This document shows, in pieces, positions 14,700 through 24,988 of a stretch of DNA of 64,000 bases. The notes beneath the pieces were generated by a model that saw only the letters and a program-made list of their open reading frames with translations, did no database searches and was not told where the DNA came from. The translations under genes were made by a program, and so were the position numbers. Origin of the DNA: Nannocystis bainbridge (GTDB taxonomy: Bacteria; Myxococcota_A; Polyangia; Nannocystales; Nannocystaceae); the NCBI RefSeq assembly GCF_028368995.1, contig NZ_JAQNDL010000003.1:1568001-1632000 (forward strand), in the 5' to 3' direction. The stretch's first letter is position 1. Every line of letters starts with the position of its first letter.

Positions 14700-16148
14700 C
14701 TACCCGCCGATCTCGCGCTTGAGCGTCTTCCGCGTCTTCTCGCCGTACGGCGGCTTCAGCCCTGCCAGCCCCGCGATGTCCAGCTTCGGCTGGCGGTAGA
14801 TCCCCTTCGCGTGGCTGAATGTTTTAAAGCCGTCGAAGCCGTGGTAGCTGCCCATGCCTGACGGGCCGATGCCGCCGAACGGCAGGTCTTCGGGGACCCC
14901 GTGGAAGATGACGTCGTTGAGCGTCACCCCGCCCGAGACCGTGCGCTCGACCACCCGGCGCTCCTCGTCGGCGTCGTCGCCGAAGTAGTAGAGGGCCAGC
15001 GGCCGCTCGCCCGCGTTCACGTACGCGATCGCCTCCTCCACGCGGTCGTACGGCACGATCGGCAGGATCGGCCCGAAGATCTCCTCGCGGGTCAGCCGCA
15101 TCTCCGGCTTCGTGTTGCGGACCAGGTGCAGCGGCATCTTGTTGCTGCCCGCGCTGGCGAAGTCCTCGTTGGCCGGGTTGATGGCGATCACCTCGGCGCC
15201 CTGGGCCCTCGCGTCCTCGAGCAGGCCCTGCAGGCGCTCGCGGTGGCGGCCGTCGACGATCGACGTGTAATCGTCGTTGCTGAGCATCGTCGGGTACAGG
15301 CGCGCGACCGCCTGCTGCAGCGCGGCGACGATCGCCGGCTCCTTGCTGCGCGGCACCAGCATGTAGTCGGGCGCGAGGCAGACCTGGCCGGCGTTGAGCA
15401 GCTTGCCCGTGACCACGCGCTCGCTCGCGCGGGCGACGTCGGCGGTCTCGCCGACGATCACGGGCGACTTGCCGCCCAGCTCGAGCGTCGTCGGCACCAG
15501 GTTGTCGGCAGCGGCGTGGAGGATGTGGCGGGCGATGCCGGTGCCGCCGGTGAAGATCAGGTGGTCGAACGGCAGGCCGGCGAACGCCTTGCCGATGTCG
15601 GTGCCGCCGAGGATGAACGCGAGCTCGTGCTCGGGGAAGAACTTGGTCGCCAGCTCGCGCATCAGCTCGGCGGTGCGCGGCGTGTGCTCCGACGGCTTGA
15701 CCATCGCTCGGTTGCCGGCGGCGAAGATCTGCGCCAGCGGATCGAAGGTCAGGTAGACCGGGAAATTCCACGGCGAGATGACGCCGACCACGCCCTTCGG
15801 CTGGTGCTCGACGTGGGCCCGCGCGCCCAGCAGGCCGAGCGGGAAGTCGAGCTTGCGCTTCTCCGGCTTCATCCACCGGTCGACGTGGGCCAGCGCGTGC
15901 CGCAGCGCCTTCACCGACGCCATGATGTCGGTGATCGTCGACTGCGTGGCCGAGCGGTGGCCGAAGTCGGCCGACAGCGCCTGCGTCAGCCGGTCCTGAT
16001 TGCCGACCACGAGGTCGATCGCGCGCCGCAGCCGGTCCTTGCGGATCGCCGCGCTCACCGGCAGCTCGGCGGTGAACGCCTCGCGCTGGCGTCGCAGGAC
16101 GTCGCGCATGTGCGCCAGGATCGTTTCGTCGCTCGAGTGATTCTCCAT
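14700..16148 (-). CDS. Aldehyde dehydrogenase (coniferyl/long-chain aldehyde type)
   Basis: PWNFP, KPSE, FTGG, LELGGKSP, GQVCLAPD, EEIFGP, PFGGIGPSGMG. Confidence 0.93.
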   Translation of the reverse strand: MENHSSDETILAHMRDVLRRQREAFTAELPVSAAIRKDRLRRAIDLVVGNQDRLTQALSADFGHRSATQSTITDIMASVKALRHALAHVDRWMKPEKRKLDFPLGLLGARAHVEHQPKGVVGVISPWNFPVYLTFDPLAQIFAAGNRAMVKPSEHTPRTAELMRELATKFFPEHELAFILGGTDIGKAFAGLPFDHLIFTGGTGIARHILHAAADNLVPTTLELGGKSPVIVGETADVARASERVVTGKLLNAGQVCLAPDYMLVPRSKEPAIVAALQQAVARLYPTMLSNDDYTSIVDGRHRERLQGLLEDARAQGAEVIAINPANEDFASAGSNKMPLHLVRNTKPEMRLTREEIFGPILPIVPYDRVEEAIAYVNAGERPLALYYFGDDADEERRVVERTVSGGVTLNDVIFHGVPEDLPFGGIGPSGMGSYHGFDGFKTFSHAKGIYRQPKLDIAGLAGLKPPYGEKTRKTLKREIGG

Positions 16149-16272
16149 GGTGCTCTCCTCGCTGCTTCAGGTCCGACGCCCGCGTCGCGCGGTCGGGGTC
16201 CCCAGGGTCTCGCGCCGCCGCGACGACTTCAACCACTGTTCACCGCGCCGCGGCGCGTTCGCCTCCGCCACC

Positions 16273-22953: not shown

Positions 22954-22963
22954 CGCACCGCAC

Positions 22964-24988
22964 TCACAGCGTCTTCATGTACTCGAGCAGCGCCCACCGC
23001 TCGTCGTCGTCCAGCGACTGCGTGAAGTCGTGGCCGTGGTTGCCCATGCCATAGAGGTGGCTGTTGAAGATCATGCGCGAGCGGATCTGCTTCTGCGTGA
23101 TCGGCGGGGGCGACTGATAGGCCAGCGAGTTGTACTGCGCGACCGCGTTGGCGATGTTGGCGAACAGCACGTCGATCGTCGCCATGTCCTCCGAGCACGG
23201 CAGGAACGTGCTGTTGCCCGGCTTGTCCGCGCACTGCAGCGCGGTGTACTTCCACCCGAGCTTGGCGAAGTCGTAGGCGGCGAAGCTGGGGTCGTAGCCG
23301 GCGTTGGTGCCGAGGATGTTGGCGGCGGTGTATTGCCGCTTCCACACCGCCGGGCGCGCGTCGGGGTCGAGCACGCCCCACAGGTCGGGCACGCTGCCGT
23401 TGTGGAGGAACGGCGCGTTGCCCCACGCCCCGTACAAGGGCGGCGCCATGTAGCCGGTCGGCTCGATCCACTCGTTGGGCCCCAGCGGCGAGTACACCGG
23501 GCCCTGGCCGTTGTCGTAGGCCGCGCGCGGGATCCGCCGCAGCGCGCTCGACACCGGGTCGTCGAAGAAACCCTGGTGATCCGGGCTCATGTCGTTGTAG
23601 GCCAGGAACGAGGTGTTCCAGGCCCGGCGCTTGCGCTCGTCGGCCATCAGCTCGAAGCGCGACGGGTCGGTGTCGATGATCTCGATCGGCGTGATCACGC
23701 CGGCGATGCCCTTGAGCCGCGGGTCGGGCAGATACGCCGGGTCGGCCGCGTATTGCGGCGAGTACACGCCGTGGCAGCTGGCGCACGAGCCGTTGCCCTC
23801 CGGCACCGGGATGTCGGGGTTGGCCCCGCCTTCCCACAGGTCGCGCTCGTGGAACAGCTCCGCGCCCCACTCGGCCAGGCCCTCGTCGATCGCGTGCGGG
23901 TAGGCCGGCGGCGACATCGACAGGAAGAAGTTGTCGTTGTCCTCGAACTCGGCGGTCAGCGCCCGCCGCTCGGGCGCGCTGCGCAGCAGGTTGGCGATCC
24001 CGAACGCCATCTCCGAGCGCACGTTGTCGGACGTGAGCGCGCCGTCCCAGAACTGGCGGGTCTTGAACGCGCGGTACCACCAATTGGGCGCGCGCGACAT
24101 GCCGCCGGCGTGGGTCGGGAAGTACTCGAGCAGGCTCGGCACCATCGCCAGCGAGTCCATGTCGAACAGCGCCGGCAGCAGGTCGACGATGCCGATCGCG
24201 TCGGACGAGCCGCGGCCGACGCTCCACGGGATCGGCGCCAGCAGCAGCAAGTTGAGCAGCTTGTTGGCCTGGAAGAAGTCGGCCTGCAGCAGGCCCGCGT
24301 CGTTGGCGTCGCTCGAGCGGCCCCACACGAACGGCAGCTCGGCGCTGGTGCCGAGCCGCGAGTCGTGGCAGCCCGAGCACGACGACGAGATGAGGCCGGT
24401 CCAATTGCCGTTGGAGTCCTTGGCCTGGACCAGCCCGAGCGGCAATTGCCCGCTGCCGCCGTTCGTGAAGTTGGGGTTCTCCCACGGGTACGGGTACGGG
24501 TTGTCGAACGGCGCCTTGATCATGCCGTAGCGCTTGATCACCTGCTCGTCGAAGTCCGCCGGGCGCAGCAGGTACCCCCATTGCTTGTAGATCTCGTAGT
24601 AGTTCTTGGCGGTCGAGAACGACTGGAAGTAAGCCCGCTCCTGGATGTTCTTGCGCCCGCGCTCGACGCTGGCCCGAAACTCGCCGCAGGTGCTCGGATT
24701 GGGCGCCAGCGTGGTCTCGAACGGCTCCGGCGGATCGTGAAGGTCGACCCACCAGGCGTTGAACTGCACCGCCGCGCCCGGCGTGTTGACGCCCGGGACC
24801 ACCAGCGTGCGTGGGTCGAGCGGGATCGGCGTGGCGTCGGGCTTGCCCGCGCAGCCGGCCGCCAGAGGCGAACGGATGGTCGCGGTGTCCAGCAACGGCG
24901 GGCTCGCCATTGCCAGGTCCGCCGTACACAGCATTGTCGCCACCGCCAGCGCGCTCGCGCCGACCCTTCGAGATGTCCCCTGCCTCAT
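22964..24988 (-). CDS. roxA: Secreted di-haem c-type rubber oxygenase, RoxA family
   Basis: ATG 24988 with AGGAGG RBS and signal peptide; about 674 aa; CSGCH and CASCH; NGGSGQLP, GNGSCASCHGVYSPQYAADPAYLPDPRLKGI, RAWNTS, PFLHNGSVP, EYMKTL, all matching RoxA as I recall it. Confidence 0.85.
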   Translation of the reverse strand: MRQGTSRRVGASALAVATMLCTADLAMASPPLLDTATIRSPLAAGCAGKPDATPIPLDPRTLVVPGVNTPGAAVQFNAWWVDLHDPPEPFETTLAPNPSTCGEFRASVERGRKNIQERAYFQSFSTAKNYYEIYKQWGYLLRPADFDEQVIKRYGMIKAPFDNPYPYPWENPNFTNGGSGQLPLGLVQAKDSNGNWTGLISSSCSGCHDSRLGTSAELPFVWGRSSDANDAGLLQADFFQANKLLNLLLLAPIPWSVGRGSSDAIGIVDLLPALFDMDSLAMVPSLLEYFPTHAGGMSRAPNWWYRAFKTRQFWDGALTSDNVRSEMAFGIANLLRSAPERRALTAEFEDNDNFFLSMSPPAYPHAIDEGLAEWGAELFHERDLWEGGANPDIPVPEGNGSCASCHGVYSPQYAADPAYLPDPRLKGIAGVITPIEIIDTDPSRFELMADERKRRAWNTSFLAYNDMSPDHQGFFDDPVSSALRRIPRAAYDNGQGPVYSPLGPNEWIEPTGYMAPPLYGAWGNAPFLHNGSVPDLWGVLDPDARPAVWKRQYTAANILGTNAGYDPSFAAYDFAKLGWKYTALQCADKPGNSTFLPCSEDMATIDVLFANIANAVAQYNSLAYQSPPPITQKQIRSRMIFNSHLYGMGNHGHDFTQSLDDDERWALLEYMKTL

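What the first reader, a model, noticed from the sequence alone, without database searches (positions are those of the whole stretch)
14700..24988. roxA heads an apparently complete downstream pathway for rubber/polyisoprene cleavage products
Seen: roxA, three ACADs, Zn-ADH, DUF4334, CoA ligase and ALDH are co-oriented, mostly with overlaps or very short gaps. Established: RoxA cleaves cis-1,4-polyisoprene to the C15 keto-aldehyde ODTD. Inference: ALDH makes the acid, the ligase activates it, the ACADs handle methyl-branched acyl-CoAs and the ADH acts on the keto/alcohol end. This gives a genetically linked candidate for the poorly defined intracellular pathway and a functional clue for DUF4334.
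Basis: partly seen in the sequence, partly recalled or inferred. Interest (0 to 1): 0.75.

Follow-up and report, generated by a model that had tools for sequence, protein, structure and literature searches.

The report
Rubber-oxygenase operon with product-catabolism genes
A myxobacterial gene for the rubber-cutting enzyme RoxA leads an eight-gene operon of enzymes suited to burning its C15 product, and the same partners recur beside roxA in distant bacteria, which gives testable candidates for a pathway that is still undefined.

Summary
Window 14700-24988 (minus strand) holds roxA, three acyl-CoA dehydrogenases (ACADs), a Zn-alcohol dehydrogenase (ADH), a GXWXG/DUF4334 protein, an acyl-CoA ligase and an aldehyde dehydrogenase (ALDH). 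Four junctions overlap by 4 bp; the gaps are 10, 13 and 124 bp.

RoxA passes NCBI's RoxA cut-off and keeps both haem motifs and the residues equivalent to Phe317, Trp302, His517 and His641.

The functional link is more than local synteny:
- Among 68 RoxA-clade loci, 57 have an ACAD, 41 a ligase and 27 an ALDH within 10 kb.
- 19 of 68 carry the DUF4334 gene, 18 of them with the Zn-ADH. These span Myxococcota, Gamma- and Betaproteobacteria, in varying gene order.
- Zn-ADH and DUF4334 are fused in four proteins, in both domain orders. DUF4334 is also fused to terpene synthases and a GMC oxidoreductase.
- An identical 19-bp palindrome overlaps the roxA promoter and the promoter of a TetR gene 26 kb away. 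That TetR gene precedes a second RoxA-like dihaem gene.

"Complete" is overstated. Hydratase/dehydrogenase and thiolase lie outside the operon (6714-10134), and no dienoyl-CoA reductase or racemase is in the window.

An adjacent ACAD10/11-type kinase plus ACAD pair (10196-12465) suggests the keto end is finished by the levulinate-type phospho-elimination route. No biochemistry was done, so all enzyme roles are inferred.

The parts
22964..24988 (-). roxA: secreted dihaem rubber dioxygenase, first gene of the operon.
   Evidence: NCBIfam RoxA NF050033 scores 1291.6 bits against a cut-off of 1000. PDB 4B2N matches at E 1.1e-292. CSGCH lies at 204-208 and CASCH at 402-406. W314, F329, H529 and H653 align with W302, F317, H517 and H641 of the solved RoxA. 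The N-terminus looks like a signal peptide.
21790..22953 (-). ACAD1: homotetramer-type acyl-CoA dehydrogenase, nearest to long-chain-specific ACAD.
   Evidence: All three Pfam ACAD domains are present. The best PDB matches are 2pg0 (7e-105) and mitochondrial long-chain ACAD 8w0t (5e-99).
20561..21793 (-). ACAD2: large-subunit-like partner of a probable heteromeric ACAD.
   Evidence: NCBIfam pimC_large scores 179 bits, below its cut-off. The best PDB matches are 4x28 chain A and 6wy8 chain B.
19401..20564 (-). ACAD3: small-subunit-like partner of a probable heteromeric ACAD.
   Evidence: NCBIfam gives IpdE2 at 153 bits and pimD_small at 107 bits, both below cut-off. The best PDB match is 6wy8 chain A, and 4x28 chain D also matches. 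These are the partner chains of the entries hit by ACAD2.
18313..19404 (-). Zn-dependent, probably NAD-linked alcohol dehydrogenase of the benzyl-alcohol-dehydrogenase type.
   Evidence: Pfam ADH_N and ADH_zinc_N are present. The best PDB matches are 5tnx (3.8e-95) and benzyl alcohol dehydrogenase 1f8f (2e-91). The Cys/His/Glu zinc-site residues, GxGxxG and D216 are invariant in 15 roxA-linked orthologues.
17843..18316 (-). GXWXG/DUF4334 protein: calycin-like beta-barrel, proposed isoprenoid-binding partner of the ADH.
   Evidence: Pfam PF14231 scores 73.7 bits and PF14232 92.9 bits, both against a cut-off of 25. PDB 4mve matches at 1e-27. The AF2 model has pLDDT 90.9. Foldseek gives TM 0.88 to 4mve, with weak matches to FABPs and lipocalins. 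Fusions are documented.
16273..17829 (-). Acyl-CoA ligase.
   Evidence: Pfam AMP-binding and AMP-binding_C are present. NCBIfam PRK06187 long-chain-fatty-acid--CoA ligase scores 556.6 bits against a cut-off of 476.
14700..16148 (-). Aldehyde dehydrogenase, last gene of the operon.
   Evidence: Pfam Aldedh matches at 9e-84. The nearest NCBIfam model is benzaldehyde dehydrogenase MdlD at 306 bits, below its cut-off of 550.
25183..25211 (-). Sigma70-like promoter of the roxA operon.
   Evidence: TTGACG-17-TATACT, 10 of 12 matches. The scan found 4 such sites in 15.5 kb against 1.4 expected.
25166..25184 (.). 19-bp palindromic operator overlapping the -10 element of the roxA promoter.
   Evidence: The sequence is identical to the site at 51258..51276. 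It is conserved upstream of roxA in 5 of 5 Nannocystis loci.
14562..14582 (-). Terminator-like hairpin after the ALDH gene.
   Evidence: This is a consensus match only; 7 such sites were found against 7.9 expected.
25359..27041 (+). DUF3556 membrane protein, divergent from roxA and sharing the operator-bearing intergenic region. Its role is unknown; an uptake function would be pure inference.
   Evidence: Pfam PF12077 matches at 5.6e-191. It is divergent from roxA in 5 of 5 Nannocystis loci and absent from the other 70 loci.
10196..11452 (+). ACAD10/11- or LvaC-type acyl-CoA dehydrogenase-fold protein, proposed 4-phosphoacyl-CoA eliminase.
   Evidence: The best PDB matches are 4hr3 (3.7e-55) and ACAD11 entries 2wbi (6.3e-49) and 8v3u (4.8e-48), ahead of all other ACADs.
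11398..12465 (+). APH-family kinase of the ACAD10/11 or LvaA type, proposed 4-hydroxyacyl-CoA kinase.
   Evidence: Pfam APH matches at 5.8e-45. PDB matches are 9o56 (5.7e-60) and the ACAD11 kinase domain 8v3v (1.8e-54).
8923..10134 (-). 3-ketoacyl-CoA thiolase.
   Evidence: Pfam Thiolase_N and Thiolase_C are present. NCBIfam PRK08242 scores 673.5 bits against a cut-off of 514.
6714..8900 (-). FadB/FadJ-like enoyl-CoA hydratase plus 3-hydroxyacyl-CoA dehydrogenase.
   Evidence: Pfam ECH_1, 3HCDH_N and 3HCDH are present. NCBIfam FadJ scores 496 bits, below its cut-off.
50571..51194 (-). TetR-family regulator (BetI-type C-terminal domain), candidate repressor of the roxA operon.
   Evidence: Pfam TetR_N and TetR_C_6 are present. 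It is 78-81% identical to the TetR that directly precedes ACAD1-roxA in Chondromyces and Minicystis.
51258..51276 (.). Second copy of the 19-bp operator, in the promoter region of the TetR gene.
48695..50497 (-). rox2: a 600-aa RoxA-like dihaem protein downstream of the TetR gene. It is not RoxA, RoxB or RoxC by NCBIfam cut-offs.
   Evidence: Pfam RoxA-like_Cyt-c is present. NCBIfam gives RoxC 156, RoxB 119 and RoxA 93 bits against cut-offs of 900-1000. The only PDB match is RoxA, at 1.4e-18. 88% orthologues lie 2.5-5 kb upstream of roxA in 3 Nannocystis loci.

Best explanation
This is a TetR-controlled locus for using poly(cis-1,4-isoprene), in a Nannocystis-like myxobacterium.

Proposed sequence of events:
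1. RoxA is exported and cuts the polymer to the C15 keto-aldehyde ODTD. This is inferred from family membership.
2. The seven genes that appear to be co-transcribed with roxA encode cytoplasmic enzymes for that product.
3. The ALDH oxidises the aldehyde end to the acid, and the ligase makes the CoA ester.
4. ACAD1 (long-chain type) and the ACAD2/ACAD3 pair (probably a heteromeric ACAD of the kind that handles bulky branched acyl-CoAs) start the beta-oxidation rounds on the gamma-methyl-enoyl and alpha-methyl intermediates.
5. The neighbouring FadB-like enzyme and thiolase (6714-10134) complete each round.

Four rounds would give 2 acetyl-CoA, 2 propionyl-CoA and 4-oxopentanoyl(levulinyl)-CoA.

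The keto end is reduced to a 4-hydroxyacyl-CoA. It is then phosphorylated and eliminated by the adjacent ACAD10/11 (LvaA/LvaC)-type kinase and ACAD pair (10196-12465).

The Zn-ADH works together with the DUF4334 protein. DUF4334 is a calycin-like barrel that I read as the binder or presenter of the hydrophobic isoprenoid substrate. My preferred reaction for the ADH is reduction of the 12-oxo group. The alternative is aldehyde/alcohol interconversion at C1.

A TetR repressor encoded 26 kb away binds the same 19-bp palindrome at its own promoter and over the -10 element of the roxA promoter. It would release both when a product-derived ligand appears.

What is shown: gene content, packing, family membership, conservation of linkage, the fusions and the shared operator.
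What is inferred: every enzymatic step, the regulator-operator pairing and induction.
For: RoxA identity.

Operon packing, promoter and terminator.

Linkage across taxa. One scan found 376 relatives, and the best 80 gave 75 loci.
- In 68 RoxA-clade loci (at least 60% identity): an ACAD within the flanks in 57, a ligase in 41, an ALDH in 27, an APH kinase in 12.
- DUF4334 in 19 of 68 and the Zn-ADH in 18 of 68, always on the roxA strand.
- In 7 more distant Rox-like loci: 2, 2, 0, 1, 0 and 0 respectively.
- With at least 8 kb of flank on both sides, 50 of 53 RoxA-clade loci have at least one of these families.

Pfam annotation of 217 called ORFs from 14 loci of different genera.
- Beta-oxidation families lie beside roxA in 13 of 14 loci.
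- The fourteenth, Parahaliea, has only DUF4334, the Zn-ADH and roxA.
- The ALDHs recruited are not orthologous: 81-92% identity in Nannocystis, 37-38% in Myxococcaceae and 29-30% in Sphaerotilaceae.
- An SDR, APH and ACAD trio (the LvaD/LvaA/LvaC architecture) abuts roxA in Archangium.
- A racemase-family CoA-transferase III gene occurs in the Microbulbifer and Sphingomonas loci.
- Table 3 of PMC6460296 places an ALDH, a racemase and an ACAD within about 5 kb of latA2 in Rhizobacter (passages).

RoxA tree: the ADH-DUF4334 label needs 7 changes, at least 6 of them forced by well-supported branches. It appears on the Burkholderia, Roseateles, Parahaliea, Microbulbifer, Polyangiaceae and Nannocystaceae branches.

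Fusions.
- Zn-ADH plus DUF4334 in P0241 (73% and 62% identical to the two window proteins), and in P0253, P0259 and P0371. Both domain orders occur.
- DUF4334 plus terpene synthase in P0272 and P0308.
- DUF4334 plus GMC oxidoreductase in P0363.
- An Atlas cluster of 63 terpene-synthase fusions.

DUF4334 fold.

ACAD10/11-type pair: with the mechanism taken from passages of PMC11342911 and PMC6692424.

Heteromeric ACAD.

Operator.
- The identical 19-mer lies at 25166..25184 and 51258..51276.
- The same palindrome lies upstream of roxA in 5 of 5 Nannocystis loci and upstream of the TetR gene in the 3 of them whose flank reaches it.
- It also lies upstream of the TetR gene in Chondromyces (1 mismatch) and occurs twice in MAG locus L066.
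- The window TetR is 78-81% identical to the TetR that precedes ACAD1-roxA in Chondromyces and Minicystis.
Against: No transcript, induction or enzyme data exist for this organism.

Gaps in the pathway:
- The operon itself lacks hydratase, 3-hydroxyacyl-CoA dehydrogenase and thiolase.
- The window has no 2,4-dienoyl-CoA reductase or alpha-methylacyl-CoA racemase, both of which the proposed route needs.
- The FadB/thiolase genes and the kinase/ACAD pair do not carry the operator. The only nearby match has 2 mismatches and lies inside the FadB-like gene. Their membership therefore rests on position alone.
- A foreign low-GC defence island separates the kinase/ACAD pair from the operon.

Limits of the linkage evidence:
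- 49 of 68 RoxA-clade loci have no DUF4334 within 10 kb, including all Myxococcaceae, Steroidobacteraceae and Sphingomonas loci.
- 4 of 7 distant Rox-like control loci also have an ACAD, a ligase or an APH, so the background for those common families is not negligible.
- The DUF4334 subfamily also has homologues of 55-68% identity in Solimonas and Sinimarinibacterium MAGs, whose context I could not see.

Limits on the ADH and DUF4334 assignments:
- The ADH's nearest characterised relative acts on a primary (benzyl) alcohol, not on a methyl ketone.
- The calycin resemblance of DUF4334 is weak (TM 0.31-0.45).
- DUF4334 has many invariant polar residues, which could mean it is an enzyme rather than a carrier.
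Confidence: 0.7

Rival explanations
1. The seven downstream genes form a general fatty-acid or branched-lipid beta-oxidation operon. It merely sits next to roxA through shared ancestry or a chance insertion, and there is no dedicated link to the RoxA product.
For: ACADs, ligases and ALDHs are abundant paralogous families. PMC6460296 counts 24 ACAD and 26 ALDH genes in one 6.4-Mb rubber degrader (passages). 4 of 7 distant Rox-like loci also have one of these families nearby. None of the ACADs or the ALDH reaches an NCBIfam equivalog cut-off.
Against: Linkage persists across Myxococcota, Alpha-, Beta- and Gammaproteobacteria with rearranged gene order and with non-orthologous ALDHs. The ADH-DUF4334 pair is found in 19 of 68 RoxA-clade loci and 0 of 7 others, always on the roxA strand. 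The operator is shared only by the roxA promoter and the TetR promoter. In Minicystis and Chondromyces roxA sits inside the gene row, between ACAD1 and ACAD2.
Confidence: 0.1
2. The locus is real and dedicated, but its natural substrate is some other isoprenoid. Candidates are other polyprenoid or terpenoid lipids from plants, prey or the cell itself, rather than rubber. RoxA and rox2 would cleave that substrate, and the operon would burn the fragments.
For: DUF4334 is fused to terpene synthases and to a squalene-hopene-cyclase-like multi-domain protein, so the family's link is to terpenoids in general. A second, divergent RoxA-like protein shares the regulon. Expressed RoxC proteins showed no rubber cleavage (PMC10837239, passages).
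Against: The protein is inside the RoxA clade and above the RoxA cut-off. It keeps Phe317 and Trp302, which PMC10837239 lists as conserved in active rubber oxygenases. A review (PMC6163206) reports functionally active roxA in two other myxobacteria. I could not read the primary paper, which is not held.
Confidence: 0.12
3. The Zn-ADH with DUF4334 is a detoxification or buffering device for the reactive aldehyde (ODTD to the alcohol and back). It is not a keto-end enzyme, and the kinase/ACAD10/11-type pair next door is unrelated housekeeping for 4-hydroxy acids.
For: The nearest characterised relative is benzyl alcohol dehydrogenase, a primary alcohol/aldehyde enzyme. The other fusion partners of DUF4334 include alcohol-oxidising families such as GMC oxidoreductase and BBE/FAD oxidase. 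Minimal modules of ADH, DUF4334 and roxA occur without an ALDH in Parahaliea and Burkholderia. The kinase/ACAD pair lacks the operator and is on the other strand.
Against: An APH kinase lies within 10 kb of roxA in 12 of 68 RoxA-clade loci. In Archangiaceae and Steroidobacteraceae it is the gene next to or close to roxA. Beta-oxidation of ODTD acid must end in a 4-oxo acyl-CoA (from the structure of ODTD). The only route for that seen in the papers read uses exactly this enzyme pair.
Confidence: 0.3

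Closest known systems
RoxA of Steroidobacter cummioxidans 35Y (PDB 4B2N) and the characterised myxobacterial RoxAs.
   Same: Same family and length. Both haem-binding motifs are present, with the CSxCH form of the first. The residues equivalent to Trp302, Phe317, His517 and His641 are kept, and the N-terminus looks like a signal peptide.
   Different: The host genus is new: Nannocystis-like, with 88-93% identity to other Nannocystis RoxAs and 72-78% to other myxobacterial RoxAs. 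Here the gene is the first cistron of an eight-gene catabolic operon. None of the rubber papers I could read describes that context.
Actinobacterial rubber loci, in which lcp occurs with aldehyde-oxidising enzymes and is followed by beta-oxidation with alpha-methylacyl-CoA racemase.
   Same: The logic is the same: extracellular oxygenase, then aldehyde oxidation, CoA activation and beta-oxidation (PMC5979037 and PMC6460296, passages; abstracts of PMC9782182 and PMC13737355).
   Different: The oxygenase family differs: a dihaem c-type cytochrome here, a b-type Lcp there. There is a single defined C15 product instead of a ladder of oligomers. The Zn-ADH and DUF4334 pair, the heteromeric-type ACAD pair and the ACAD10/11-type module are not part of the actinobacterial scheme in the passages I read.
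Levulinate catabolic operon lvaABCDE of Pseudomonas putida, and mammalian ACAD10/ACAD11.
   Same: An APH-family kinase lies next to an ACAD-fold protein, and their best named structural relatives are the two domains of ACAD11. That chemistry converts a 4-hydroxyacyl-CoA to a 2-enoyl or 3-hydroxyacyl-CoA through a 4-phospho intermediate (PMC11342911; PMC6692424).
   Different: No LvaB and no SDR-type LvaD are seen beside the pair in the window; the Zn-ADH might take LvaD's place. The presumed source of the 4-oxo acyl-CoA is polyisoprene, not free levulinate. No assay supports the assignment.
Heterotetrameric alpha2beta2 ACADs of steroid catabolism (PDB 4x28 and 6wy8) and PimCD.
   Same: Two adjacent, overlapping ACAD genes have as best structural relatives the two different chains of the same heteromeric entries. 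Both also give weak pimC_large and pimD_small/IpdE2 matches.
   Different: All NCBIfam scores are far below the equivalog cut-offs. The context is oligo-isoprenoid rather than steroid or pimelate. The asymmetry of FAD and catalytic sites between subunits was not examined.
Tcur_1030 of Thermomonospora curvata (PDB 4mve), a GXWXG/DUF4334 protein of unknown function.
   Same: Same two Pfam domains and same fold (36% identity, TM 0.88-0.93).
   Different: The window protein belongs to a subfamily that travels with a Zn-ADH and with roxA. No function is recorded for 4mve.

Membership tests
RoxA (exo-cleaving rubber dioxygenase) | Whole-protein score above NCBIfam's curated RoxA cut-off, and above the scores for RoxB and RoxC. 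| tested here: met
   NF050033 scores 1291.6 bits against a cut-off of 1000. RoxC scores 599 and RoxB 500, each against a cut-off of 900.
RoxA (exo-cleaving rubber dioxygenase) | Two c-type haem motifs, the first of the form CSxCH. | tested here: met
   CSGCH lies at 204-208 and CASCH at 402-406. They align with C191-H195 and C390-H394 of 4B2N. The CSxCH rule comes from PMC10837239.
RoxA (exo-cleaving rubber dioxygenase) | Residues equivalent to Phe317 and Trp302; the MauG-type motif with His517; the axial ligand His641. | tested here: met
   F329, W314, H529 and H653 align with them. All four are invariant in 16 RoxAs. The role of His517 is recalled. His641 and His394 as axial ligands come from PMC6311187.
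RoxA (exo-cleaving rubber dioxygenase) | Sec signal peptide. | tested here: inconclusive
   The N-terminus has a basic start, an Ala/Leu/Val-rich core and an A-x-A before residue 29. No signal-peptide predictor was available.
RoxA (exo-cleaving rubber dioxygenase) | [quoted passage not shown] | not testable with these tools
   This needs an enzyme assay.
ACAD10/ACAD11 or LvaA-LvaC 4-hydroxyacyl-CoA kinase/eliminase | An APH-fold kinase of the ACAD10/11 type next to, or fused with, an ACAD of the ACAD10/11 clade. | tested here: met
   The kinase matches the ACAD11 kinase domain 8v3v at 1.8e-54. The ACAD matches ACAD11 entries 2wbi and 8v3u at 6e-49 and 5e-48, ahead of other ACADs. The two genes are adjacent on one strand.
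ACAD10/ACAD11 or LvaA-LvaC 4-hydroxyacyl-CoA kinase/eliminase | Phosphorylation of a 4-hydroxyacyl-CoA followed by phosphate elimination. | not testable with these tools
   This needs an assay. The mechanism was read in PMC11342911.
Heteromeric alpha2beta2 acyl-CoA dehydrogenase | Two adjacent ACAD genes homologous to the two different subunits. | tested here: met
   ACAD2 matches 4x28_A and 6wy8_B. ACAD3 matches 6wy8_A and 4x28_D. The genes overlap by 4 bp.
Heteromeric alpha2beta2 acyl-CoA dehydrogenase | Only one subunit keeps the FAD-binding and catalytic-base residues; the two subunits form a complex. | not tested
   No residue-level comparison or complex prediction was made for this pair.
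GXWXG/DUF4334 | Both Pfam domains above the gathering score, and the 4mve fold. | tested here: met
   The domains score 73.7 and 92.9 bits against a cut-off of 25. TM to 4mve is 0.88.
Calycin superfamily (lipocalin/FABP) as lipid binder | A closed antiparallel beta-barrel with a ligand cavity, and a structural match to members. | tested here: inconclusive
   The model has eight to nine strands after the N-terminal helices. Foldseek matches to FABPs, lipocalins and odorant-binding proteins reach only E about 1e-2 and TM 0.31-0.45. The Atlas feature search's first hit is a cluster named 'lipocalin-like', at score 0.91.
TetR-repressed regulon | A palindromic operator at the regulator's own promoter and at the target promoter. 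| tested here: met
   The identical 19-mer occurs at both promoters and overlaps the -10 element. It is conserved in related genomes.
TetR-repressed regulon | The regulator binds the operator and is released by a ligand. | not testable with these tools
   This needs EMSA or a reporter assay.

The most novel reading that the evidence does not exclude
DUF4334 is the missing specificity factor of isoprenoid oxidoreduction. It would be a small calycin-like module that captures hydrophobic oligo-isoprenoid carbonyls or alcohols and hands them to a dedicated Zn-ADH. In fused form it would hand them to GMC or BBE oxidases, or receive them from terpene synthases.

In RoxA hosts, the ADH-DUF4334 pair would reduce the methyl-ketone end of ODTD. 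Rubber carbon would then finish through a 4-hydroxyacyl-CoA kinase and phospho-eliminase (ACAD10/11 or Lva chemistry).

The whole set would be switched by one TetR repressor, which also controls a fourth kind of RoxA-like dihaem oxygenase (rox2).
Probability: 0.3. Interest if true: 0.85.

Novelty: new variant of a known kind. Interest (0 to 1): 0.7.

Why it matters
The intracellular fate of the RoxA product in Gram-negative bacteria is described as unknown. [quoted passage not shown] Published schemes instead list dozens of paralogues picked by annotation (PMC6460296).

This locus, with its counterparts in other phyla, narrows the search to a handful of named candidates:
- one ALDH;
- one ligase;
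- three ACADs;
- a Zn-ADH with its DUF4334 partner;
- a kinase/ACAD pair for the keto end;
- a regulator with a defined operator.

It also gives the first contextual function for a Pfam domain of unknown function, which has about 1000 representatives at the 50% identity level.

It proposes a route (levulinyl-CoA by way of a 4-phospho intermediate) that none of my literature searches found linked to rubber.

Practical uses would be engineering strains that consume ODTD, building ODTD-responsive biosensors from the TetR-operator pair, and blocking catabolism so that functionalised oligo-isoprenoids accumulate.

Tried and rejected
- Complex prediction for the Zn-ADH and DUF4334 (collected) returned "no answer". 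The score was 0.00 and the controls were not run. It counts neither for nor against binding.
- My first two ad hoc gene callers, based on GC3 measures, mis-called antisense ORFs in the known operon, so I dropped them. The three-periodic model reproduced the Pfam-supported genes and was used instead.
- rox2 as RoxB: rejected. RoxB scores 119 bits against a cut-off of 900.
- The low-GC stretch 12466-14699 as part of the pathway: rejected. It is a defence island.
- The TetR at 5286-6017 as regulator of the operon: not supported. It has no operator copy nearby and is only distantly similar to the roxA-linked TetRs.
- Five palindrome matches in other loci were treated as chance or unrelated. They are the 1-mismatch sites inside ORFs of Microbulbifer L029, L038 and L059, and those in L037 and L062.
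- Literature searches for DUF4334 returned one unrelated genome paper. A search for roxA with gene cluster and ACAD returned four papers, none describing this operon according to their listings and the passages read in PMC6163206. A search for levulin with polyisoprene and beta-oxidation returned 0 papers. In a further search, none of the 15 papers listed out of 99 combined a levulinate term with a rubber-oxygenase term.
- Three papers were not readable: Birke et al. 2013 (PMC3811194), Rand et al. 2017 (PMC5705400) and Sharma et al. 2020 (not found). No supplementary files were opened. The S1 dataset of PMC5979037 may list the neighbours of roxA in strain 35Y.
I therefore could not ask how often ADH-DUF4334 pairs occur without roxA, or with lcp (for example in Solimonas).

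Full report
1. WHAT IS THERE

The window is about 71% G+C. Its RoxA is 88-93% identical to those of Nannocystis punicea, N. exedens, N. radixulma, N. pusilla and Nannocystis sp. RBIL2. The organism is therefore a Nannocystis-like myxobacterium.

Eight co-oriented genes lie on the minus strand between 24988 and 14700.
- roxA, 22964..24988.
- ACAD1, 21790..22953.
- ACAD2, 20561..21793.
- ACAD3, 19401..20564.
- Zn-ADH, 18313..19404.
- A GXWXG/DUF4334 protein, 17843..18316.
- An AMP-binding acyl-CoA ligase, 16273..17829.
- An ALDH, 14700..16148.

The junctions run as follows: a 10-bp gap, four 4-bp overlaps, a 13-bp gap and a 124-bp gap. If DUF4334 starts at Met7, as in the Atlas record and in P0121, its overlap becomes a 14-bp gap.

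A sigma70-like promoter (TTGACG-17-TATACT, 10 of 12) lies at 25211..25183. It sits about 195 nt before the roxA start codon, which is preceded by an AGGAGG. A terminator-like hairpin follows the ALDH gene at 14582..14562. That terminator is a consensus match only: 7 such sites were found against 7.9 expected.

A coding model trained only on roxA recovers exactly these genes.

2. IS IT ROXA?

Yes, by every sequence criterion I could test.
- NCBIfam's RoxA model gives 1291.6 bits (cut-off 1000). RoxC gives 599 and RoxB 500.
- The solved RoxA (4B2N) aligns end to end at E 1.1e-292.
- CSGCH (204-208) and CASCH (402-406) match the two haem sites.
- W314, F329, H529 and H653 align with Trp302, Phe317, His517 and His641.
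- All of these are invariant in an alignment of 16 RoxAs from Myxococcota, Beta- and Gammaproteobacteria.

PMC10837239 (passages) names Phe317 and Trp302 as conserved in active rubber oxygenases, and CSxCH as the RoxA form of the first motif.

The N-terminus looks like a Sec signal, but I had no predictor. Activity itself is inferred.

3. IS THE LINKAGE MORE THAN LOCAL SYNTENY?

Of 376 confirmed relatives, the best 80 gave 75 loci with up to 10 kb on each side.

By tblastn with the window's proteins, 68 loci carry a RoxA of at least 60% identity. The other 7 carry more distant Rox-like proteins (39-48%).

| Family within the flanks | 68 RoxA-clade loci | 7 distant loci |
|---|---|---|
| ACAD | 57 | 2 |
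| Ligase | 41 | 2 |
| ALDH | 27 | 0 |
| APH-type kinase | 12 | 1 |
| DUF4334 | 19 | 0 |
| Zn-ADH orthologue | 18 | 0 |

- The single DUF4334 locus without the ADH (L029) ends 808 bp upstream of roxA.
- Eight RoxA-clade loci have none of these families, and five of those have truncated flanks.
- With at least 8 kb on both sides, 50 of 53 loci have at least one family.
- The small control set is not clean: 4 of 7 distant loci have an ACAD, a ligase or an APH. The common families alone are therefore weaker evidence than the pair.

Pfam annotation of 217 called ORFs from 14 loci of different genera gives the picture below. The symbol | marks a change of strand.
- Minicystis: TetR, ACAD1, roxA, ACAD2, ACAD3, ADH, DUF4334, ligase.
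- Chondromyces: the same, with an SCP-x-type thiolase before DUF4334.
- Myxococcus and the record titled Comamonas sp. KCTC 72670: roxA convergent with a row of SDR/TetR, ligase, ACAD, ACAD, thiolase, FadB and, in Myxococcus, an ALDH.
- Archangium: roxA | SDR, APH, ACAD | ECH, SDR, ligase, ACAD, ACAD.
- Microbulbifer: LuxR/MalT, TonB receptor, APH-like, ACAD, ligase, ADH, DUF4334, roxA | AraC | thiolase, FadB, SDR, CoA-transferase III (racemase family), ECH.
- Roseateles: GMC oxidoreductase, ACAD, ligase | roxA, CcmH-like, ALDH, ADH, DUF4334, ACAD, ACAD.
- Parahaliea: DUF4334, ADH, roxA only.
- Burkholderia alba: ADH, DUF4334, roxA, ccm genes, then ECH, thiolase, SDR and 3-hydroxyacyl-CoA dehydrogenase.
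- Aquabacterium: ACAD, ligase | roxA, CcmH-like, ALDH, GFA, ccm genes.
- Peristeroidobacter and Povalibacter: roxA with APH, ECH, a TLP1-type thiolase-like protein, FadB, ACAD and ligase.
- Sphingomonas: ACADs, LuxR, roxA | ligase, TLP1, CoA-transferase III, GMC oxidoreductase, an Lcp-type domain protein and a TonB receptor.

Thirteen of 14 loci have beta-oxidation families. The fourteenth has only the ADH-DUF4334 pair.

The ALDHs are not orthologous between lineages: 81-92%, 37-38% and 29-30% identity to the window's ALDH. This points to repeated recruitment.

Independently, Table 3 of PMC6460296 (passages) puts an ALDH, an alpha-methylacyl-CoA racemase and an ACAD within about 5 kb of latA2 in Rhizobacter gummiphilus. 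The passages I read do not comment on that.

On a RoxA tree the ADH-DUF4334 label needs 7 changes, and at least 6 are forced by well-supported branches.
- The tree has 73 rows. L049, L064 and L066 were left out because their matches were partial.
- The shuffled mean is 16.3 changes, and 0 of 500 shuffles were as low as the observed value.
- The label appears on six separate branches: Burkholderia, Roseateles, Parahaliea, Microbulbifer, Polyangiaceae and Nannocystaceae.
- It sits upstream of roxA in some branches and downstream in others.
- The linkage was therefore either ancestral and often lost from the 10-kb neighbourhood, or repeatedly co-transferred. Both readings imply selection for keeping these genes with roxA.

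4. DUF4334

The protein has both Pfam domains. It is homologous to the uncharacterised Tcur_1030 (PDB 4mve, E 1e-27).

An AlphaFold model built from 35 sequences has pLDDT 90.9.
- It superposes on 4mve at TM 0.88.
- Beyond that, only weak matches (E about 1e-2, TM 0.31-0.45) appear, to fatty-acid-binding proteins, lipocalins and odorant-binding proteins.
- I read the fold as a helix-capped antiparallel barrel of calycin type, with low certainty.
- Many polar residues are invariant (H57, E60, K71, R103, Y117, D118, D124, H125 and others). An enzymatic role is therefore not excluded.

The strongest clue is domain fusion.
- A search for longer relatives found P0241 (530 aa; a cluster of 14 member sequences).
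- Its first 361 residues are 73% identical to the window's Zn-ADH. Its C-terminal part is 62% identical to the window's DUF4334.

A profile search of 1.84 billion representatives found 1002 family members at E up to 1e-3 and 87 at E up to 1e-30. Among the 150 best listed, 17 have at least 238 aa, and I scanned 14 of these against Pfam.
- Three are Zn-ADH fusions. Two have DUF4334 first and one has it last, so both domain orders exist.
- Two are terpene-synthase fusions. One of them also carries prenyltransferase/squalene-hopene-cyclase-like and BBE/FAD-oxidase domains.
- One is a GMC oxidoreductase fusion.
- One each carries a metallo-beta-lactamase-fold domain, an AraC-type HTH and a DUF952 domain.
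- Five have no second domain.

The ESM Atlas independently lists a 63-member actinomycete cluster of terpene-synthase-DUF4334 proteins.

Taken together, DUF4334 repeatedly accompanies alcohol/carbonyl oxidoreductases and terpenoid enzymes. I read it as the module that binds or presents a hydrophobic isoprenoid to its oxidoreductase partner.

5. THE OTHER ENZYMES

- The Zn-ADH is closest to 5tnx and to benzyl alcohol dehydrogenase 1f8f (E 2e-91). In 15 roxA-linked orthologues the Cys/His/Glu and four-Cys zinc-site positions, GxGxxG and an Asp at 216 are invariant. The roles of these positions are recalled from the medium-chain dehydrogenase literature. The Asp suggests a preference for NAD.
- ACAD1 is nearest to 2pg0 and to mitochondrial long-chain ACAD. 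That this enzyme accepts 2-methyl-branched substrates is recalled, not tested.
- ACAD2 and ACAD3 hit the two different chains of the same heteromeric ACAD structures: 4x28 A/D and 6wy8 B/A. They also weakly match the pimC_large and pimD_small/IpdE2 models. I recall those entries as steroid-catabolic alpha2beta2 enzymes; the depositors' names say only acyl-CoA dehydrogenase.
- The ligase passes the PRK06187 cut-off.

Toward lower coordinates, beyond the 3' end of the operon, the window holds:
- a foreign low-GC island (12466-14699);
- a convergent pair: an ACAD (10196..11452) and an APH-family kinase (11398..12465);
- a divergent thiolase (8923..10134) and a FadB-like hydratase/dehydrogenase (6714..8900).

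In L002 and L003 the kinase follows the ALDH gene directly, so the island is an insertion.

The kinase's best named structural relative is the kinase domain of ACAD11 (1.8e-54). The ACAD's best named relatives are ACAD11 entries, ahead of all classical ACADs.

According to PMC11342911 (passages) and PMC6692424 (passages), this pair (LvaA/LvaC in Pseudomonas, fused in ACAD10/11) works in two steps.
- It phosphorylates 4-hydroxyacyl-CoAs.
- It then eliminates phosphate to give a 2-enoyl or 3-hydroxyacyl-CoA.
An SDR (LvaD) first reduces levulinyl-CoA.

This fits the chemistry of ODTD. Oxidation of C1 and four beta-oxidation rounds on 4,8-dimethyl-12-oxotrideca-4,8-dienoyl-CoA should release acetyl-, propionyl-, acetyl- and propionyl-CoA, and leave 4-oxopentanoyl-CoA (15 carbons accounted for). 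This is my derivation from the structure.

The APH kinase lies within 10 kb of roxA in 12 of 68 RoxA-clade loci. In Archangium it forms an SDR-APH-ACAD trio beside roxA.

I found no paper linking levulinate chemistry with rubber. Subscription papers were not searched.

7. REGULATION

The 19-bp palindrome CTTGCTAGTCGCCAGCAAG (minus strand) overlaps the last two bases of the roxA -10 hexamer, at 25166..25184.
- An identical copy, spacer included, lies at 51258..51276. It is again fused to a TTGACG...TATAAC promoter-like element, 64 bp before a TetR gene (50571..51194).
- That TetR is 78-81% identical to the TetR that directly precedes ACAD1-roxA in Chondromyces and Minicystis.
- The palindrome is found upstream of roxA in 5 of 5 Nannocystis loci, and upstream of the TetR gene in the 3 of them whose flank reaches it.
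- It is also found upstream of the TetR gene in Chondromyces (1 mismatch) and twice in MAG locus L066.
- In all, 16 sites with at most 1 mismatch occur in 1.50 Mb of loci. Five of them, inside ORFs or in unrelated places, I regard as chance.

Downstream of the window's TetR lies rox2 (48695..50497), a 600-aa RoxA-like dihaem protein.
- It has CxxCH twice. FWNG stands in place of FWDG, and Tyr stands at the Phe317 position.
- It is far below the RoxA, RoxB and RoxC cut-offs.
- In three Nannocystis genomes its 88% orthologue lies 2.5-5 kb upstream of roxA.
- In the window, therefore, about 21.6 kb separates two halves of what is elsewhere one locus. That stretch holds kinases, an FGE-type protein, T6SS VgrG/PAAR/DUF2169 genes and two radical-SAM genes.

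8. VERDICT

- The locus is best described as a TetR-controlled RoxA operon for oligo-isoprenoid use.
- Its accessory genes are conserved with roxA across phyla.
- It is not complete by itself.
- The individual enzyme assignments remain inference, above all which carbonyl the ADH attacks.

RoxA itself is a new member of a known family. The new elements are the operon, the ADH-DUF4334 module, the proposed levulinyl-CoA end-game and the shared operator. I found none of them described in the papers I could read: passages of PMC10837239, PMC6311187, PMC5979037, PMC6460296 and PMC6163206, plus the listings.

Noticed in passing
window 12466-14699: A 2.2-kb stretch of low G+C interrupts the locus between the kinase gene and the ALDH gene; the 12001-14000 bin is 55% G+C against about 71% elsewhere. 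It encodes a two-gene candidate anti-phage system. PADLOC Hp1 (13642..14610, E 1e-54) is called a GAPS4 PD-(D/E)XK nuclease by the Atlas. Hp2 appears split between ORFs 13365..13820 and 12469..13404. In L002 and L003 the ALDH gene is followed by the kinase gene after about 450-520 bp.
   Followed up: partly
window 48695-50497 and 50571-51194: A second, divergent RoxA-like dihaem protein (rox2) lies behind the TetR gene that shares the roxA operator. It scores below all NCBIfam Rox cut-offs. It keeps the Trp302 equivalent but has Tyr at the Phe317 position. It may represent a further subgroup of Rox-like proteins.
   Followed up: partly
window 27257-48322: About 21.6 kb lies between DUF3556 and rox2 that is absent at this place in three other Nannocystis genomes. 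It holds two Ser/Thr kinases, an FGE-sulfatase-type protein, T6SS-type VgrG (36392..38842), DUF2169 (35376..36359), a PAAR-like toxin-domain protein (32744..34528), a PAS/STAS protein and two radical-SAM proteins (45442..48322).
   Followed up: no
window 25359-27041: A DUF3556 membrane protein is divergent from roxA in the window and in all five Nannocystis loci, and absent from the other 70 loci. It shares the operator-bearing intergenic region, so it may be co-regulated.
   Followed up: partly
L036 12878-18668; L045 12063-20636; L031 11902-12690: Cytochrome c maturation genes (ccmB, C, E, F, G, H, or a CcmH-like TPR protein) lie directly downstream of roxA in Burkholderia alba, Aquabacterium soli and Roseateles. 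This suggests a dedicated haem-attachment set for the dihaem enzyme.
   Followed up: no
L016 (record titled Comamonas sp. KCTC 72670): Its RoxA sits inside the Myxococcus clade of the tree, and its neighbourhood is of the Myxococcus type. The record is probably mislabelled or contaminated, or it reflects a very recent transfer.
   Followed up: no
L048 7730-11998; L075 703-13594: L048 has two tandem RoxA copies, in a betaproteobacterial MAG. L075 has four tandem distant Rox-like genes, in a Salinisphaerales MAG.
   Followed up: no
L055 17049-22047: In Sphingomonas kyeonggiensis, about 5-10 kb downstream of roxA, lie a GMC oxidoreductase, a protein with the Lcp-type catalytic domain (PF09995) and a TonB-dependent receptor. 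Both kinds of rubber-oxygenase fold therefore occur in one locus.
   Followed up: no
one search hit list (P0182, P0239): DUF4334 homologues of 58-60% identity come from Solimonas and Sinimarinibacterium MAGs. The abstract of PMC11169899 names Solimonas among the genera with characterised Lcp proteins. Their gene context could not be examined.
   Followed up: no
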